IMG/VR virus record: IMGVR_UViG_3300027896_000034 | Coordinates: 3,256-67,255 of that record | Strand: one strand, 5' to 3' | Length of the DNA: 64,000 nt | From: a virus | In this document: one piece after another, positions 57,229 to 63,713 of the stretch | How the letters are laid out: every line of letters begins with the position of its first letter | Numbering within the stretch: the stretch's first letter is position 1 | The notes under the pieces: model-generated | Told to the model about the DNA's origin: nothing | Seen by the model: the letters and a program-made list of their open reading frames with translations, nothing else | Database searches by the model: none | Program-made: the position numbers and the translations under genes

Positions 57229-57651
57229 TCATAATAATTTTAAATCTCCAGTTATTCCATCAATTTTATCTTCATAATCTGGTCCGATTGCGCAACAAGT
57301 TTTAGTTGGAACTCCATTAAACTCTGTTAAACCAGCGTCTTCAATTAAAGAACAAAGAATATTTTTTTCAAGAGCGTCTCCATAAACTCTCATTAGTTCA
57401 TCTTCGCTATTTACATAAACTACAACTTTTGTAAATAATCCACTCAACCATAAATCTAATGGAGATCCTTTTTCTGTATACAATTCTTTTGAAATATCAT
57501 CTTCACCATTCCATATATCTACCATCTGGTCTAAAATAACTTTCATACTTGCGTGAGATCCTTGAGCAATCATTTTCCCTTTTCGCATATTTAGATCTTT
57601 TCTTATTACGATAACTTGTTTAATTTTTTTATCCATCCCATTCCCACTCAA
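57229..57651 (-). CDS. pth2: peptidyl-tRNA hydrolase type 2
   Basis: KQVIVIRKDLNMRKGKMIAQGSHAS, KVVV, DAGLTEF, TCCAIGP, TGDLKLL. Confidence 0.92.
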   Translation of the reverse strand: MSGNGMDKKIKQVIVIRKDLNMRKGKMIAQGSHASMKVILDQMVDIWNGEDDISKELYTEKGSPLDLWLSGLFTKVVVYVNSEDELMRVYGDALEKNILCSLIEDAGLTEFNGVPTKTCCAIGPDYEDKIDGITGDLKLL

Positions 57652-58936: not shown

Positions 58937-59212
58937 TTATTTACTTCTTGCAAAAAATAAACTCGGTTTTGCGTTTTTAGTATTTCTTGAATCTAAAGAA
59001 TTAGATCTTACTGTATTCAAAGATTCTACTTCTACTTGTAAAATATTTTTTATAGATTTTATTCTTGTTTCTTGAAGAGAATTAGAAACACTATGATATT
59101 CCTCGTCGATTATTTTTTCGACATAAATCCCTTCATCTTCTAAAGCTTTAACAATTATTTTTGCAACTGTTGTTTTACCCTCTCCTAAATGTCCTGTTAT
59201 AAGTATTCTCAT
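58937..59212 (-). CDS. short P-loop-containing protein
   Basis: ILITGHLGEGKTT; only 91 aa. Confidence 0.55.
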   Translation of the reverse strand: MRILITGHLGEGKTTVAKIIVKALEDEGIYVEKIIDEEYHSVSNSLQETRIKSIKNILQVEVESLNTVRSNSLDSRNTKNAKPSLFFARSK

Positions 59213-59229
59213 ATTTCAATCCTTTCGTG

Positions 59230-59306
59230 CGATGATGGCGGGATTCGAACCCGCGAATAACCAGATCGACAATCTGGCGCCTTAGACCAAACTGGGCTAC
59301 ATCACC
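59230..59306 (-). tRNA. tRNA-Asp(GUC), CCA not encoded
   Basis: CCAGA-TTGTCGA-TCTGG; G73. Confidence 0.88.
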
Positions 59307-59359
59307 ATTATTAATCATATCAAAAAAAAATCCTTTCATGATTTTTTAGTATAACGTCG

Positions 59360-59465
59360 CCCCAGTTTAAGGTTACTCTCTAGAGTTACATGTGACGAAA
59401 AAAGAAAGGAAACGTCACATGCGTCCTCTCGGTGAGGGGGAAAATGATTTCACCTTAAACTGGGG
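59360..59465 (-). ncRNA. structured small RNA candidate (strand inferred from context)
   Basis: perfect 14-bp outer stem CCCCAGTTTAAGGT/ACCTTAAACTGGGG; 9-bp inner stem CATGTGACG/CGTCACATG. Confidence 0.6.
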
Positions 59466-59478
59466 GTTATTAATTAAA

Positions 59479-59778
59479 TTATTTCATGCTATCTAGAAGA
59501 GCATCCTTTTCTGCTTGAAGAGCAGCTCTTCTTTCTTCACGACCCATTGTAGCTCTCAGCATCGAGTCTATTTTTTTCAGTTTCGCCAATTTTTCAGCTT
59601 TTGATAAAGACTTAATTTCAGCTTCTACTTCATTTAATTTTTCATCAACCCAGTCAGGAATATCCAACTGAAGTTCTGCGTAGTTGGTTGCAACTAATTT
59701 GATCTCTGCCCTTACACCAACCATCGTTTCAATATCATTGTTTTTAACTTTAAAATTTTTTAATCCTTCGATATTCAT
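59479..59778 (-). CDS. helical hypothetical protein downstream of the Ro60-like gene
   Basis: 99 aa; AAGGAG RBS. Confidence 0.65.
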   Translation of the reverse strand: MNIEGLKNFKVKNNDIETMVGVRAEIKLVATNYAELQLDIPDWVDEKLNEVEAEIKSLSKAEKLAKLKKIDSMLRATMGREERRAALQAEKDALLDSMK

Positions 59779-59895
59779 AAGTAAAATAGTTCTCCCTTAT
59801 TAAATAAATTTAATTTAAGTTATAGTTATAAGGTGAATCCTATTTATGTTTTGTTTATTCTCTAATTATAAATGCGAATAAATAAATTTTTAATC

Positions 59896-61443
59896 TTATT
59901 TTCTTTTTTCAAATATTTTGTCAAATGTTAACAATGGAAAGTTCATGATTTCGTCCATTAAACTATAGCGACTAGTTTTCATAGTTGCAACTAAATTAGG
60001 TAAAGCATAGTAATCTGTTTTCTCCATATTAAAAAATTCTACTGGAATATTTGCTTTTTTACAATACTGAGATAAATAATCACTATCTCCATGTACATGA
60101 TATAAATAAACAGTAGGTTCAATATCTAATTTTTTACAATAATTTTTATATGCATCATGAAAAAGAGGAGATGTATTATCTCCACCATCAGAAACTAAAG
60201 CAATACCATTTATAATTATATTTTTATCTTGTAAATATTTTAATCCACATCCACAAGATGTTCCTCCCCAAGCTTGAATGTGTTTTGCTTCTTTTTCTAT
60301 TTCTTCAAGTTTCTTCCCAGTTACATCAAATACTCTTGGTTCAGTATTAAAGAAAATTAAATAAACTTTTCCTGCTACTGATTTAGTAATATATGATGCA
60401 ATTTCTTTAGCAAGTTTAACAGCTGACTGCATAGACCCAGAACAATCACCAAGGATCAACCAGTCACCTTCTATGGTCTTTTGAGAAATTTTAGCTTCTT
60501 GAAGTTTTGAAAGTTTTTCAATTATATCCTTATTAATATCTGGATCATTTTCTTCTAAAGATTTCATAGCTTTACTTGCTTTTAAAGTCGAAACTTTTTT
60601 ATCTTTTGTTGCTCTAGTGAGAGCTTTATCATATTCACTTTTTAACATTTTGGATCTAAATACACCAATAGATTCCAAAAATTTTGTACTATTTATAAGT
60701 TGTTGCCCTGACATTCCATTTATAAGTGCAAGAATAAATTCTGGATTTTTTTCAAAATCTTCTTTTTTTACTCCAAGAGATCCAAGAGCTATCTGAAAAG
60801 GAATATTACGATTTAAGATTGTTCCAGCCGCTTCAGATGGTTGCATATTTTTAAGATTTGCTATTGCATAGAATATTGAGTTTACTGGAAAATTTTTTTC
60901 AAATAAAATTTCTTGAACAGTTATATCCGGATCTTCTTTCTTTAGAGATGGATATATTATAGTAGATGGATTATAATGAGATACTGTATATAATTCTTTT
61001 AAAGAAGATCTATGCTGAACTGCAGTTCTAATCCACCAACCAATTTTTTCTTCCCGAATTTCTAAATATTTTTTCATTGCTTCTTCTAATAATCTTCTGT
61101 GTCCACCAGTTATATGTAAACCTTCTTCTGAAAGTTCTTTATTAAATTTATAAGCTTTAACCAAATTTCTTGGATCTAAAGTCATTAAAGAAGCTACTGC
61201 ATTTTCTGCAAATTCAGAATCTCCTTTTTTTAAGGACCTCAAATTTATGATCGGTAAAGCAATTTTTGAATCTCTGATTTCTCCTTTAATTAAGTTCCAA
61301 GAAATTAAGTGAGCAAGAAATTCTGGATCTTCTTTTGCAACTTTTAAAGTTATTGAGACATAATCTTTTAAGTCTCCGTGCTTACTTTTTATTAACTCAC
61401 TTATCATTGATTGTTTGGTAGACGCAACATTCTCACTTTTCAT
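59896..61443 (-). CDS. Ro60/TROVE-like protein (helical N-terminal region plus C-terminal vWA MIDAS domain)
   Basis: 515 aa; DPEFLAHL..W....EIRD near the N-terminus; DCSGSM, GGTS, VSDGGDN. The vWA call is firm; TROVE is inferred from architecture. Confidence 0.7.
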   Translation of the reverse strand: MKSENVASTKQSMISELIKSKHGDLKDYVSITLKVAKEDPEFLAHLISWNLIKGEIRDSKIALPIINLRSLKKGDSEFAENAVASLMTLDPRNLVKAYKFNKELSEEGLHITGGHRRLLEEAMKKYLEIREEKIGWWIRTAVQHRSSLKELYTVSHYNPSTIIYPSLKKEDPDITVQEILFEKNFPVNSIFYAIANLKNMQPSEAAGTILNRNIPFQIALGSLGVKKEDFEKNPEFILALINGMSGQQLINSTKFLESIGVFRSKMLKSEYDKALTRATKDKKVSTLKASKAMKSLEENDPDINKDIIEKLSKLQEAKISQKTIEGDWLILGDCSGSMQSAVKLAKEIASYITKSVAGKVYLIFFNTEPRVFDVTGKKLEEIEKEAKHIQAWGGTSCGCGLKYLQDKNIIINGIALVSDGGDNTSPLFHDAYKNYCKKLDIEPTVYLYHVHGDSDYLSQYCKKANIPVEFFNMEKTDYYALPNLVATMKTSRYSLMDEIMNFPLLTFDKIFEKRK

Positions 61444-61472
61444 CTTTTCTTATTCCTTTCTTTTTAAATAGG

Positions 61473-62147
61473 TTAGGCTAGTTAAGTCAATTTTTTTAGC
61501 ATTAGAATTGCATGTATATTGACTAAGTGCCTAATTTTATATAGGCAACAGAACCGACGTAAAAAAATACGGGTTCCTGGTTTAGAGGGAACAAAAACCT
61601 CATACCTAAAACATTCACCCGTAGTAGTTTTTAAAATAGGCATAGTTAGACCAACGTTTAACCCATAACTAACCCCCATGATCTGTTTTGGTGGGGGTCT
61701 ATGGAGCGTTTTATGCATGATATAATTTGCTTGTAGGTTGCTCAGGTGCCTATTATTTAAAGGGCTAGTTTAATCGACGTTTTTACTTTTTTGGTGGAGG
61801 TTTGAGATTAGTAATCTCATACCCCCGAAGTAGCTTTTTTCATCTTCATTGAAATGCTTGTATGTCGATCATGTGCCCTATTCTTAAAACATGGCGAAGT
61901 TAAAGAAGTTTTAATCTATCTTTCGATAGTGTGTAGGATTTGAACCTACTAACATTTGCTTAAGAGGCAAATTGACAAACCAATTGTCAAACATGTAAAC
62001 TTCTTAGATGCCATGTATATTTATTTTAGTGGCATAGTTAAGTGACCTTTAGGGTTGCATAGATGGGATTGAACCATCTACAGTTAGTTTTCAAAGACTA
62101 ATGCTCTACCAAATGAGCTATATGCATGTATGATCACTATGTGCCAC
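61473..62147 (-). ncRNA. tandem array of five Y-RNA-like units
   Basis: units 62029-62147, 61889-62016, 61761-61879, 61635-61754 and 61473-61534 share GGCA-NNT-stem-TACAWG ... stem'-WAACTW-GCC with covarying stems. Confidence 0.7.
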
Positions 62148-62714
62148 ATATAAAAGTATTTGTTCTGAAAAAAATTAAGATCAGAACTTAGTTTGTTTCT
62201 TTAAGGAACCGCGGATTATTACATAATAAAATCTTGGTTATCTGAAATAATCCACGATTAATTTCTATAGTTTTACAGCAAGGATCCGGTTTCCTGTACT
62301 GGAAGGTTACTCATCCGGGTGCTAGCGTCCGGAAGTTATTATTACTAATAACCTTTTTAATGAACCTACAAGTTCTCGATGAATGTATATATCGACTATA
62401 GTTGCTCCAACATGTTGGAAACTACAGGATATATGTGGGAGTACCACTAAACACTCACAACGGATAATAAAACACCCAAGAATATCTTACTTCATGAATT
62501 AATATATATACTTAATTTTTTTATATATGATTATTTTATTTATAACTGGTCTTATGTAGAAAAGAACTAAAGTAAAAACTATTCTTTTTAATAGATACAA
62601 GTTATTACCAAGTTTCTAATCTACATAAGACCTTTGCAAAAATGGAGGTGCCTATTGTTTATTAATATATATACAAGAACAAAATATAAATGGTTTTAGA
62701 AAGGAAATATTTAT

Positions 62715-63713
62715 ATGAAAATATTTTGGGTATTTAGAACGAATTTAAAAAATTTAGAATACTATCATGAATACAAAGATTTAGAAACATTTAAAAAGAA
62801 ATGTCATGATTTTTACCTTCTCCAAGGAATATGGTTCCTAGAAAATAATAAATTTGATGAAGTTATTATATGGAGACTTTCTGATCAAAACCTTCCTGAC
62901 ATAGTTTTTGAAGTAAATGGTAAACGATTTATTCAAAGATGGGTTAAAAACTTTAATGAAGTTCTTAAATACCCTCAACCAACTATATCTTTTTTCAGAG
63001 GCGGATTTCAAGAGTATGATATTATTACAAAACATAATCCAGAATTTTTTGGATTAAAATTATATTTAGGAGCTGGTAAAAGAACTAATCCACAATATGG
63101 TGGAACTTACGATAAAATATTAGTTGAAGATGATAGTCATATAACTAGTAGATCTCATATACCTTTTTATAAAACTGCTTCTAATGAAGTATTTAAACCT
63201 TTAAGTTTAAAAGTTATTTATGATTTAATATGGATTTGTAACTTTACTCAAATTAAACATAAAGGTCAAGAATTCTTTATTGAAAGTATTTCAAAATCTA
63301 ACTATTTAAAATCATTAAAAATAGTTCATTGTGGTAATAAAGAAGATGTTGGAAAAGAACTTTGTAAGAAATATGGAATTTCTAATATTAATTTTCTTGG
63401 TCATATAACTAGAGAACAAGCGAACGAATATATAAATCAAAGTAGATTTGGAATAATGACAAGTAATGAAGAAGATGGTTGCCCAAGAATTATAACTGAA
63501 ATTTTAATGTCAGGAACTCCTTTATTGATAAGAGATAAAACTAAGTTATTAAATTTCTATAAAGAAAGAGCTGTAATAGTATTTAATGATAATAATATAG
63601 AAGAAAAAATAAAACAAGCAATGAATAGAAATTATATAAGTGAATCTCTTGAAAATAGAACTAAAATTTATATGGATAGGATATGTAAATTAAATCTAGA
63701 TTTATGGAGATAA
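62715..63713 (+). CDS. GT4-like glycosyltransferase
   Basis: HKGQ, INFLG, DGCPRIITEILMSGTP. Confidence 0.75.
   Translation: MKIFWVFRTNLKNLEYYHEYKDLETFKKKCHDFYLLQGIWFLENNKFDEVIIWRLSDQNLPDIVFEVNGKRFIQRWVKNFNEVLKYPQPTISFFRGGFQEYDIITKHNPEFFGLKLYLGAGKRTNPQYGGTYDKILVEDDSHITSRSHIPFYKTASNEVFKPLSLKVIYDLIWICNFTQIKHKGQEFFIESISKSNYLKSLKIVHCGNKEDVGKELCKKYGISNINFLGHITREQANEYINQSRFGIMTSNEEDGCPRIITEILMSGTPLLIRDKTKLLNFYKERAVIVFNDNNIEEKIKQAMNRNYISESLENRTKIYMDRICKLNLDLWR

What the first reader, a model, noticed from the sequence alone, without database searches (positions are those of the whole stretch)
59479..62167. Ro60/TROVE-like gene preceded by an array of five modular Y-like RNAs with different cargos
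Seen on the minus strand, in transcription order: GTGGCA-CAT-AGTGATC-ATACATG..GGTCACT-TAACTA-TGCCAC (62147-62029); ACATGGC-ATCT-AAGAAGTTT-ACATG..AAACTTCTT-TAACTTC-GCCATGT (62016-61889); AGGGC-ACAT-GATCGAC-ATACAAG..GTCGATT-AAACTA-GCCCT (61879-61761); AATAGGCA-CCT-GAGCAAC-CTACAAG..GTTGGTC-TAACTA-TGCCTATT (61754-61635); TTAGGC-ACTT-AGTCAAT-ATACATG..ATTGACT-TAACTA-GCCTAA (61534-61473). Stem sequences differ but stay paired, while the internal loop and TACAWG are conserved, which is the pattern of a repeated protein-binding RNA module. A GAACAAA promoter-like motif lies about 12 nt upstream of the first unit, and the last unit ends 30 nt before the gene start. Established: Ro60 binds the terminal helix of Y RNAs, whose second domain acts as effector; the 3' CUUAACUAGCC here recalls the CUUGACUAGCC end of vertebrate Y3, although the 5' GGUCCGA motif is absent. 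Inference: one phage Ro-like protein loaded with a set of interchangeable RNAs, possibly tRNA decoys or adaptors against tRNA-targeting defences, with the 99-aa downstream gene as a partner.
Basis: partly seen in the sequence, partly recalled or inferred. Interest (0 to 1): 0.92.

Follow-up and report, generated by a model that had tools for sequence, protein, structure and literature searches.

The report
Phage Ro60-like gene with Y-RNA array
An uncultured phage carries a very diverged relative of the RNA-binding ring protein Ro60, preceded by five small RNA genes that share one docking stem but carry different tRNA-like heads; this is a new branch of a known protein-RNA system.

Summary
On the minus strand, 62147-61473, five tandem units share one design: outer stem, small internal loop, inner stem, a UACAWG junction, a variable head, then the return strands around a UAACUA-type loop.

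The 515-aa gene behind them has no Pfam TROVE match. Its model aligns over its full length to Ro60/Rsr structures (Z 19.4 to human Ro60).

The same handle lies on the gene strand beside homologues in at least 44 of 58 non-redundant loci. Both stems covary.

A homologue of the 99-aa gene follows the Ro60-like gene in 51 of 54 loci. The locus sits in a phage tRNA island.

The RNAs lack the GNCGAA motif of described bacterial and phage Y RNAs. They match no Rfam family except tRNA.

Heads include tRNA bodies that keep an anticodon arm, often with abnormal anticodons (15 of 32 against 6 of 263 free tRNAs).

Verdict: a new variant of the known Ro60/Y RNA system. Its function is unproven, and a role in tRNA conflicts is plausible. 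This scan has already noted the same kind of locus on other DNA.

The parts
62159..62165 (-). GAACAAA word 12 nt upstream of unit 1; a possible phage promoter or leader motif
   Evidence: 32 copies in the window against 18.2 +/- 3.8 expected; several copies lie just upstream of genes, in sense. Not tested further.
62029..62147 (-). Y-like unit 1: shared handle plus a near-complete tRNA body in normal order
   Evidence: Sequence. Fold (z -2.43, both stems formed). Found by the scan.
62052..62127 (-). tRNA-like head of unit 1, with an 8-nt anticodon loop
   Evidence: ARAGORN reports tRNA-??? with anticodon 'ttga'. Rfam tRNA scores 50.1 bits over model positions 1-71, with the first acceptor pair not standard.
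61889..62016 (-). Y-like unit 2: handle plus D, anticodon and T arms and an extra GAAA hairpin; no acceptor stem
   Evidence: z -5.37. The Rfam tRNA match is partial: 34.4 bits, model positions 10-63, at 61933-61989.
61761..61879 (-). Y-like unit 3: handle plus two hairpins, one an acceptor-like minihelix followed by ACCA
   Evidence: z -6.38. In the sequence, GGGGGU pairs with ACCUCC, the third pair is G-U, and ACCA follows (also listed).
61635..61754 (-). Y-like unit 4: handle plus a long hairpin whose loop begins with ACCA (a loop-closed, permuted acceptor-like stem)
   Evidence: (z -2.73). One mismatch in the inner stem.
61561..61623 (-). Hairpin followed by a U7 run between units 4 and 5; terminator-like, uncertain
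   Evidence: Fold, sixth sequence. The whole spacer has z -0.40, so this is not significant on its own.
61534..61563 (-). Sigma-70-like match (TTTACG, 18 nt, TAAAAT) ending at the first base of unit 5
   Evidence: The region holds 13 such matches against 17.1 expected, so this is a consensus match only.
61473..61534 (-). Y-like unit 5: handle with only a small hairpin as head
   Evidence: z -3.40. It is the best hit in the window (9.9 bits, E 0.11 in 4 kb, filters off) of a model built only from relatives' units.
59896..61443 (-). Ro60-like gene, 515 aa: helical TROVE-type ring (about residues 1-320) plus a VWA domain with the DxSxS..T..D residues
   Evidence: AF2 model pLDDT 86.1. Foldseek ranks 1-13 are all Ro60/Rsr/TROVE. 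VIA-align gives Z 19.4 with 442 residues aligned to human Ro60 and Z 18.4 to D. radiodurans Rsr. Family invariants D333, S335, S337, T395 and D419.
59479..59778 (-). 99-aa helical protein, a conserved downstream neighbour of the Ro60-like gene
   Evidence: A homologue lies within 1 kb downstream on the same strand in 51 of 54 non-redundant loci. The model is three long helices at pLDDT 93.7. No Pfam family and no fold match at E <= 0.001.

Best explanation
This is a phage-encoded Ro60/Y RNA-type ribonucleoprotein locus of a diverged, so far unnamed branch. The minus strand encodes five small RNAs, then the Ro60-like ring protein, then a 99-aa helical partner. All of this sits at the head of the phage's tRNA island.

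Each RNA has two parts. The first is a shared handle: the outer stem, an asymmetric internal loop (3-4 nt against UAACUA), the inner stem and a UACAWG junction. The second is an interchangeable head. The five heads are a near-complete tRNA body, a tRNA body without an acceptor stem, an acceptor-like minihelix ending in ACCA, a loop-closed acceptor-like hairpin, and a bare hairpin.

The most likely working:
- The ring protein docks on the handle, as Ro60 does on the terminal helix of Y RNAs.
- The heads present tRNA-shaped surfaces. These either bring host tRNA-handling or RNA-decay factors to the ring, or occupy those factors.
- One protein would thus be loaded with a panel of adaptors during infection.

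Shown here: the protein fold, the RNA design and its covariation, its linkage to the gene family, the linkage of the small partner gene, and the tRNA-like nature of the heads.

Inferred: transcription and processing of the units, binding of the handle by the protein, and what the heads recruit.
For: Protein:
- The full-length structural match is to Ro60/Rsr only. Foldseek ranks 1-13 have TM 0.50-0.63. VIA-align gives Z 16.3-19.4 with 418-446 residues aligned for ten Ro60/TROVE entries, ahead of VWA-only hits at Z <= 14.9.
- The family profile reaches human Ro60 at E 4.1e-4 over profile positions 77-396.
- The MIDAS-type residues are invariant across the 40 aligned sequences.

RNA design:
- Five tandem units, against 0.6 expected by chance. 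All five fold as drawn.

Linkage to the gene family:
- A structure-plus-UACAHG scan of 77 viral loci (660 kb) found 106 units on the gene strand and 4 on the other strand.
- A covariance model built from 16 short units found 60 hits at E <= 0.01 in 63 loci (522 kb). All 60 are on the gene strand, and 44 of them were not in the training set.
- Taking both methods together, 44 of 58 non-redundant loci have at least one unit: 101 upstream of the gene, 0 inside it and 9 downstream. This is a lower bound. L001 has at least four units by eye and none was detected.

Covariation on the 60 hits:
- 91.0% of cells are paired, against 55.5% in shuffles.
- 258 cells changed on both sides, against 66 in shuffles; 0 of 500 shuffles reach these values.
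- Slid controls pair in at most 40.8% of cells.

Heads:
- Rfam tRNA matches in U1 and U2.
- Of 32 tRNA-like calls embedded in units, 15 have abnormal anticodons (A34 other than Arg, stop-reading, or irregular loops). Among free tRNAs in the same loci the figure is 6 of 263.

Partner gene: present just downstream in 51 of 54 loci.

Precedent: Y RNAs lie next to Ro60 in bacteria and phages (PMC4201824, passages read), and Thermus phage phiLo Ro60 binds two upstream Y-like RNAs (PMC12135203, passages read).
Against: - No Pfam TROVE match for the window protein, nor on record for any of the 120 listed homologues.
- The Ro60-binding motif of described bacterial and phage Y RNAs, GNCGAAN0-1G, is absent from all 5 window units and from the first 30 nt of all 110 relatives' units.
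- No Rfam family other than tRNA matches, at E <= 1 in the window region or at gathering score in 15 loci.
- The model built from relatives finds the window's own units only weakly: nothing with default filters. With filters off, U5 scores 9.9 bits at E 0.11, U1 and U3 score 3.7 bits, and a stray hit ranks between them. Homology of the window's handle to the relatives' handle therefore rests mainly on shared design and position.
- The units used for the covariation count were found by methods that reward pairing, so that count leans towards the structure.
- There is no evidence here on expression or binding.
- 14 of 58 loci had no detected unit.
Confidence: 0.72

Rival explanations
1. The units are precursors of working phage tRNAs. 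On this view the paired flanks are leader-trailer processing stems, and the neighbouring protein is a pre-tRNA chaperone or processing scaffold. The RNAs would not be stable Y-type partners.
For: - Many embedded bodies are complete cloverleaves with high Rfam tRNA scores, for example L046 2145-2217 at 67.1 bits and L010 3456-3526 at 58.9 bits, both over model positions 1-71.
- 17 of the 32 embedded calls have ordinary anticodons.
- The locus lies inside a tRNA island on the same strand.
Against: - 15 of 32 embedded bodies have anticodons that bacterial decoding does not normally use, or irregular loops, against 6 of 263 free tRNAs.
- Several bodies have shortened acceptor stems, with Rfam matches covering only model positions 3-68, 4-67 or 5-66.
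- U2 has no acceptor stem. U3, U4 and U5 and many relatives' units hold no tRNA body at all.
- Some acceptor stems are closed by a tetraloop (L004 and L001).
- The free tRNAs of the same islands lack the handle.
Confidence: 0.13
2. The repeats are cis-acting elements of the operon rather than free RNAs made for the protein. They would be transcription terminators or insulators, RNase III-type processing sites, or a regulatory leader of the Ro60-like mRNA.
For: - The last unit ends 29 nt before the start codon.
- A hairpin with a U run lies within the array.
- Long stems could be cut by double-strand-specific nucleases (general knowledge).
Against: - In relatives the units lie anywhere from 23 nt to more than 3 kb upstream, and in L009 they lie downstream of the gene pair.
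- The conserved sequence sits in unpaired loops and in the junction, which is the pattern of a binding site for a protein or RNA.
- The heads are tRNA-like.
Confidence: 0.07
3. The handle is bound by some other factor and not by the Ro60-like ring. Candidates are the 99-aa protein or a host protein. The gene linkage would then only reflect shared residence in tRNA islands.
For: - The 99-aa gene is as tightly linked as the Ro60-like gene.
- Nothing here shows which protein binds the RNA.
- The canonical Ro60-binding motif is absent.
Against: - The units track the Ro60-like gene on its strand across loci of very different base composition and neighbourhood.
- The design, a terminal stem with an internal loop plus a variable second domain, is that of Y RNAs (PMC4201824 and PMC12135203).
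Confidence: 0.08

Closest known systems
Bacterial and mycobacteriophage Ro60 (Rsr) with YrlA/YrlB Y RNAs (Chen et al. 2014, PMC4201824; passages read)
   Same: - A Ro60-type ring protein with one or more small RNA genes nearby on the same strand.
- The RNAs consist of a terminal stem plus a second domain that imitates tRNA.
- Some relatives of this locus carry heads in the YrlA order: T arm, loop-closed acceptor stem, D arm (L031 3173 and L038 2229).
[quoted passage not shown]
   Different: - The protein is not recognised by Pfam TROVE.
- The 5' GNCGAAN0-1G motif is absent. The handle instead has a YACU/GACUU-type internal loop (UAACUA in the window) and a UACAUG junction.
- No Rfam match other than tRNA.
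- The window's tRNA-like heads are in normal order and keep an anticodon arm. In YrlA the Y stem takes the place of the anticodon stem.
- There are five units in tandem.
- The locus has a conserved 99-aa partner and no RtcB/RtcA neighbours in the window.
Thermus phage phiLo Ro60 with Yrl1 and Yrl2 (PMC12135203; PDB 9KOP, 9L5Y; passages read)
   Same: - A phage Ro60 with low sequence identity to cellular Ro60 and with Y-like RNAs just upstream of the gene.
- The structures are among the top matches of the model here: Z 18.0 and 16.3, and Foldseek ranks 1-2.
   Different: - phiLo's RNAs were found through a CGAA motif, which is absent here.
- phiLo has two RNAs and this locus has five.
- The passages I read report no tRNA island or small partner gene for phiLo.
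- Sequence relation to this family is marginal (profile E 0.67-0.68).
Vertebrate Ro60 with Y RNAs
   Same: - Fold of the protein: Z 19.4 to human Ro60 and Z 18.6 to Xenopus Ro60 with RNA.
- The RNA is built as a terminal helix with an irregularity plus a variable effector domain.
   Different: - The GGUCCGA motif contacted by Xenopus Ro60 (as quoted in PMC4201824) is absent.
Ro60-like gp130 of coliphage Bas63, directly upstream of its tRNA genes, reported to counter the ppl defence system (bioRxiv 10.1101/2024.10.10.617714; passages read)
   Same: - A phage protein that resembles Ro60 only by structure and sits at a tRNA array.
- The authors suggest that some of the annotated tRNAs are Y RNAs.
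- It links such proteins to counter-defence.
   Different: - I could not fetch Bas63 itself.
- As a stand-in I used ORF86 of the related phage Felix O1, chosen by its position before the tRNA array. It matches this family's profile only in the VWA part, at 24.7% probability, and has no Y-like array upstream.
- Membership in the same family is therefore not shown.
Listeria phage CKA15_055, an HHpred match to Rsr, with three highly transcribed non-coding regions within 2 kb upstream (PMC12282133; passage read)
   Same: A diverged phage Rsr-like gene with abundant upstream non-coding RNAs on the same strand, proposed to be Y RNAs.
   Different: - No shared handle or tRNA-like heads are described in the passage read.
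- A tblastn search of 50,697 phage records with the window protein found no Listeria phage.

Membership tests
Ro60 / Rsr (TROVE-VWA) proteins | Helical-repeat ring (TROVE module) followed by a VWA domain, as one chain | tested here: met
   The AF2 model (pLDDT 86.1) aligns over residues 4-496 to human Ro60 (Z 19.4, rmsd 4.2, 442 residues aligned). It aligns likewise to Xenopus Ro60, D. radiodurans Rsr and phage phiLo Ro60. VWA-only hits follow at Z <= 14.9.
Ro60 / Rsr (TROVE-VWA) proteins | Sequence signature: Pfam TROVE domain | tested here: not met
   Pfam gives only a sub-threshold VWA_2 match (E 0.0048). None of the 120 listed homologues has a TROVE entry on record. The family profile does reach human Ro60 at E 4.1e-4.
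Ro60 / Rsr (TROVE-VWA) proteins | MIDAS-type metal site in the VWA domain (DxSxS, T, D) | tested here: met
   D333, S335, S337, T395 and D419 are invariant in 40 aligned family members. Reading them as a MIDAS site rests on general knowledge of VWA domains and on PMC12135203.
Ro60 / Rsr (TROVE-VWA) proteins | Binds Y RNA on the outer ring surface and single-stranded RNA ends in the cavity | not testable with these tools
   Needs a binding assay or a structure of the complex.
Y RNAs (general) | Encoded beside the Ro60 gene, on the same strand | tested here: met
   Window. Relatives: 106 units on the gene strand against 4 on the other; 60 of 60 model hits on the gene strand; 44 of 58 loci with at least one unit.
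Y RNAs (general) | The 5' and 3' ends pair into a long stem with an internal loop or bulge, joined to a variable second domain | tested here: met
   Folds. Covariation in both stems. Variable heads.
Y RNAs (general) | Conserved Ro60-contact motif on the 5' strand (GGUCCGA in vertebrates, GNCGAAN0-1G in bacteria and phages; PMC4201824) | tested here: not met
   0 of 5 window units have it. 0 of 110 relatives' units have it in their first 30 nt.
Y RNAs (general) | Match to a curated Rfam Y RNA or YrlA model | tested here: not met
   Only tRNA matches, plus one chance-level microRNA match, at E <= 1 in 59000-63000. Only tRNA at gathering score in 15 related loci.
YrlA subclass | tRNA-like domain in the order T arm, loop-closed acceptor stem, D arm, with the Y stem in place of the anticodon stem | tested here: not met
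   The window's U1 and U2 have normal arm order and keep an anticodon arm. U3 to U5 have no T or D arm. Some relatives do show the order T arm, acceptor loop with ACCA, D arm (L031, L038). Others show T, acceptor hairpin, D and then an anticodon arm (L004, L001).
Functional tRNA genes | 7-bp acceptor stem, 7-nt anticodon loop and an anticodon used in decoding | tested here: not met
   U1 has an 8-nt loop and a non-standard first acceptor pair. U2 has no acceptor stem. Among relatives, 15 of 32 embedded bodies have abnormal anticodons or loops.

The most novel reading that the evidence does not exclude
The array would be a panel of ring-docked tRNA baits. Each Y-like RNA would display a tRNA body, an anticodon arm with a freely drifting anticodon, or a sealed or ACCA-ended acceptor mimic (in U3 with a G-U third pair). 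The Ro60-like ring and its 99-aa partner would use these baits to capture or misdirect host enzymes that attack or modify tRNA during infection, such as anticodon nucleases, acceptor-end-modifying toxins and tRNA-fragment sensors. This would shield the phage's own tRNA island. It would be a counter-defence use of the Ro60/Y RNA principle, common in uncultured phages.
Probability: 0.2. Interest if true: 0.85.

Novelty: new variant of a known kind. Interest (0 to 1): 0.62.

Why it matters
Ro60 and its Y RNAs are a classic but still poorly understood RNA-surveillance particle. Known bacterial and phage examples have one to a few Y RNAs with a CGAA-type motif.

Here a protein family that standard domain libraries do not recognise as Ro60 turns out to be a full Ro60-type ring. 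The family has 601 representative clusters at E <= 0.001. Only one of 50,697 deposited phage records holds it, an uncultured phage. Only four small MAG contigs among one genome for each of 185,579 species hold it.

The family has its own RNA handle, arrays of up to five or more RNAs with swappable tRNA-like heads, a fixed small partner protein and a home inside phage tRNA islands.

This gives a natural series of one protein with many adaptor RNAs for asking what the second domain of a Y RNA does. It also ties the system to the current question of how phages defend their translation apparatus against tRNA-targeting immunity. The handle can be turned into a covariance model to annotate these RNAs, many of which are at present called as odd tRNAs.

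Tried and rejected
- A first structure-only scan without sequence anchors gave 11,030 hits on one strand of the A+T-rich window and was useless.
- The strict window-derived motif scan found only 5 plus-strand and 1 minus-strand hits in the 77 viral loci, because relatives use GACUU rather than UAACUA. I replaced it with the UACAHG-anchored scan.
- The relatives-only covariance model found nothing in the window with default filters. With filters off it found only weak hits.
- A single-sequence search of PDB sequences gave nothing relevant.
- Complex prediction on the Ro60-like protein plus the 99-aa protein returned no verdict (score 0.00). This says nothing either way.
- The look-up of sequencing runs listed one DNA run of a freshwater metagenome, possibly the source. 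No RNA holder was listed, and I did not lay reads.
- The one metagenome scan returned a single partial locus without upstream DNA.
- Two review papers were not held. Supplementary tables of PMC4201824, which list the phages and RNAs found in 2014, could not be seen and might include relatives of this family.
- I tried to reach phage Bas63 by guessing accession numbers and failed. I used Felix O1 instead, and its ORF86 matched only in the VWA part.
The passages I read (PMC7919456) describe a short end-joining stem and an 11-nt motif next to its 5' strand. The motif's letters are in a figure, and no Rfam family matched in the searches.
- The fold of the 99-aa protein had no PDB match at E <= 0.001.
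- Literature searches for this clade or handle found only the papers cited. I found no description of a UACAUG-type handle or of Ro60-linked arrays in phage tRNA islands, within the held library.

Full report
**What is there.** All of the following is on the minus strand, in transcription order.
- A GAACAAA word at 62165-62159.
- Four back-to-back units: U1 62147-62029, U2 62016-61889, U3 61879-61761 and U4 61754-61635, separated by 12, 9 and 6 nt.
- A 100-nt spacer with a hairpin plus a U7 run (61623-61561) and a sigma-70-like match (61563-61534).
- A fifth, short unit, U5 61534-61473.
- 29 nt later, a 515-aa gene (61443-59896), then a 99-aa gene (59778-59479).
- Downstream, on the same strand, lie 19 of the window's 20 ordinary tRNA genes (59306 to 51505) and a PTH2 peptidyl-tRNA hydrolase gene.
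- The rest of the window carries phage replication genes: ribonucleotide reductase, a UvsX-like recombinase and a Dda-like helicase.

**The units.** Each unit reads: outer stem (5-8 bp, always with a GGC/GCC core), 3-4 unpaired nt, inner stem (7-9 bp), (A/C/U)UACAWG, a head of 19-90 nt, the return strand of the inner stem, UAACUA (or UAACUUC, AAACUA), and the return strand of the outer stem.
- The five inner stems all differ in sequence and stay paired. U4 has one mismatch.
- Each unit folds into this shape on its own, with z from -2.4 to -6.4.
- A scan for the whole design finds the five units plus two A+T-rich strays on the minus strand and none on the plus strand. Shuffles give 0.6.

**The heads.**
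- U1 holds a near-complete tRNA in normal order. Rfam tRNA scores 50.1 bits over the whole model. ARAGORN cannot name it because the anticodon loop has 8 nt.
- U2 holds D, anticodon and T arms (34.4 bits, model positions 10-63) plus an extra GAAA hairpin, but no acceptor stem.
- U3 holds a hairpin and a six-pair minihelix whose third pair is G-U, followed by ACCA.
- U4 holds the same kind of C-rich/G-rich helix in permuted order, with ACCA opening the loop.
- U5 holds only a three-pair hairpin.
I checked them against the sequence.

**The protein.**
- Pfam sees only a sub-threshold VWA match. PHROGs gives a weak match to an 'RNA-binding protein' family in the VWA part.
- The family is large. 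The word-indexed search scored 8000 candidates, found 329 proteins at E <= 0.001 and listed the best 120, almost all unnamed metagenome proteins. The exhaustive search found 601 representatives at E <= 0.001 and 218 at E <= 1e-30.
- A profile of 40 members reaches human Ro60 at E 4.1e-4.
- The AlphaFold model (pLDDT 86.1) matches only Ro60-type structures over its full length. Foldseek ranks 1-13 are Ro60/Rsr/TROVE entries. VIA-align gives Z 19.4 (442 residues, rmsd 4.2) to human Ro60, 18.4 to D. radiodurans Rsr, and 18.0 and 16.3 to Thermus phage phiLo Ro60, well above the VWA-only matches.
- The DxSxS, T and D residues of the VWA metal site are invariant in the family.
- The gene is therefore a Ro60-type ring protein that sequence libraries miss.

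**Where the family lives.**
- Of 50,697 deposited phage records, one holds a relative: an uncultured 595-kb phage, at 28% identity.
- The genome collection holds one genome for each of 185,579 species. In it, four small MAG contigs hold most of the protein, and the other 25 matches are VWA-only.
- IMG/VR gave 77 loci, of which 68 cover most of the protein.
- This is a family of uncultured phages.

**Linkage of RNA and protein.**
- Reading the DNA upstream of homologues showed the same design at once, in L060, L004, L046 and L001. The consensus is: outer stem, YACU, inner stem, UACAUG, head, inner stem, GACUU, outer stem. A few relatives use UAACU-type 3' loops like the window.
- A scan anchored on UACAHG that required both stems found 106 units on the gene strand and 4 on the opposite strand in 660 kb. 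Three of the 106 lie in loci that match only the VWA part.
- A covariance model built from 16 short units of relatives found 60 hits at E <= 0.01 in 63 loci, all on the gene strand, and 44 of them were new.
- I counted units in 72 loci, L001-L068 and L079-L082. The VWA-only loci L069-L077 and L083-L107 were left out. By gene DNA, 58 of the 72 are non-redundant.
- Of these 58, 44 have at least one detected unit: 101 upstream of the gene, none inside it and 9 downstream. Detected units per locus range from 0 to 5.
- Detection is incomplete. L001 has at least four units by eye and none was detected.
- On the 60 model hits, both stems covary. 91% of cells are paired against 55.5% in shuffles, and 258 against 66 cells changed on both sides. 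No shuffle of 500 reaches these values, and slid controls pair in at most 41% of cells.
- The caveat is that scan and model both reward pairing, and the model built from relatives sees the window's own units only weakly.

**The small partner.** A profile of the 99-aa protein finds a homologue within 1 kb downstream of the Ro60-like gene, on the same strand, in 51 of 54 non-redundant loci that have enough downstream DNA. Two more loci have one nearby. It is predicted as three long helices (pLDDT 93.7). It has no Pfam family and no fold match. Conserved adjacency supports a functional tie. Physical binding is not shown.

**tRNA context.**
- In the related loci, 255 of 263 free tRNA genes lie on the strand of the Ro60-like gene. 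Many loci hold 10-20 tRNAs within 9 kb.
- A call counts as embedded if it lies inside a detected unit or has UACAHG at its 5' end. Of the 32 embedded tRNA-like calls, 15 have anticodons with A34 other than Arg (act, atc, aat, aaa), stop-reading anticodons (tta, tca) or irregular loops.
- Among free tRNAs the figure is 6 of 263.
- Several embedded bodies have shortened acceptor stems, and some are circularly permuted with tetraloop-closed acceptor stems.
- This fits imitation of tRNA shape without decoding.

**Comparison with what is known.**
- Y RNAs next to Ro60 in bacteria and phages, with tRNA-like domains, were described in 2014 (PMC4201824, passages read). Thermus phage phiLo Ro60 with two upstream Y-like RNAs was solved in 2025 (PMC12135203, passages read).
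- Structure-only Ro60-like proteins at phage tRNA arrays, or near abundant non-coding RNAs, were noted in passing for Bas63 and a Listeria phage. TROVE proteins are mentioned for some jumbo phages.
- Against these, the present locus differs in several ways:
  - the protein clade is not recognised by Pfam TROVE;
  - the handle has no GNCGAA motif (0 of 5 window units and 0 of 110 relatives' units) and no Rfam match;
  - the heads are in normal order and retain the anticodon arm;
  - the array has five units;
  - there is a fixed 99-aa partner.
- I file it as working like a Ro60/Y RNA particle and as a new variant of that kind, not as a member of the YrlA family.
- Earlier notes of this scan describe the same kind of locus on other genomes and reach a similar verdict. 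Some of those clades have a different partner (ARPP-1-like), which I did not see here.

**Mechanism.** The likeliest working is that the ring protein docks on the conserved handle and the heads act as adaptors or baits for tRNA-binding factors. The central cavity and the partner protein would complete an RNA-handling particle that serves the phage's tRNA economy. I put 0.72 on the identity as a Ro60/Y RNA-type particle. What the heads recruit or block is open. The bait or counter-defence reading is kept as the novel case at 0.2.

Noticed in passing
window 59352-59470 (-): Strongly structured RNA just after the 99-aa gene: a 14-bp outer stem enclosing three hairpins, with z -7.87. The loop of its 10-bp hairpin holds 13 nt complementary to the purine-rich stretch before the Ro60-like start codon (read; lead from note e1-6191287). 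It could be an operon terminator or a regulator. Not examined in relatives.
   Followed up: partly
window 62180-62440 (-): ORF-free stretch upstream of the array with stable stems: z -3.11 for 62300-62440 and -1.98 for 62180-62320. No Rfam match. It may be a further RNA of the locus or a shared regulatory region with the divergent glycosyltransferase gene at 62715.
   Followed up: partly
window, e.g. 53069, 56211, 35113, 29009, 62677, 62159: TA-GAACAAA-TATA-like words lie 10-40 nt before several ribosome-binding sites, in sense. The word is enriched, 32 copies against 18.2 expected. Possibly a phage promoter or leader element.
   Followed up: partly
window 57229-57651 (-): A PTH2-type peptidyl-tRNA hydrolase gene (E 2e-31) lies inside the tRNA island.
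   Followed up: no
window 58937-59212 (-): A 91-aa ORF that holds only the P-loop start of an NTPase or kinase fold, lying between tRNA genes. Possibly a remnant.
   Followed up: no
L038 2229, L031 3173, L047 3698, L054 3627: Relatives carry permuted tRNA-like elements in the order T arm, 3' acceptor strand, encoded ACCA, loop, 5' acceptor strand, D arm. In L038 the third acceptor pair is G-U.
   Followed up: partly
L009 5799-6560: In this relative the five-unit array lies downstream of the Ro60-like gene and its small partner gene, not upstream. One of its heads is called as a tRNA with anticodon tta.
   Followed up: no
L001 3230-3300 and L004 365-445: Permuted heads in the order T arm, UUCG-closed acceptor hairpin, D arm, complete anticodon arm. 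The handle therefore leaves the tRNA body at the variable-region position.
   Followed up: partly
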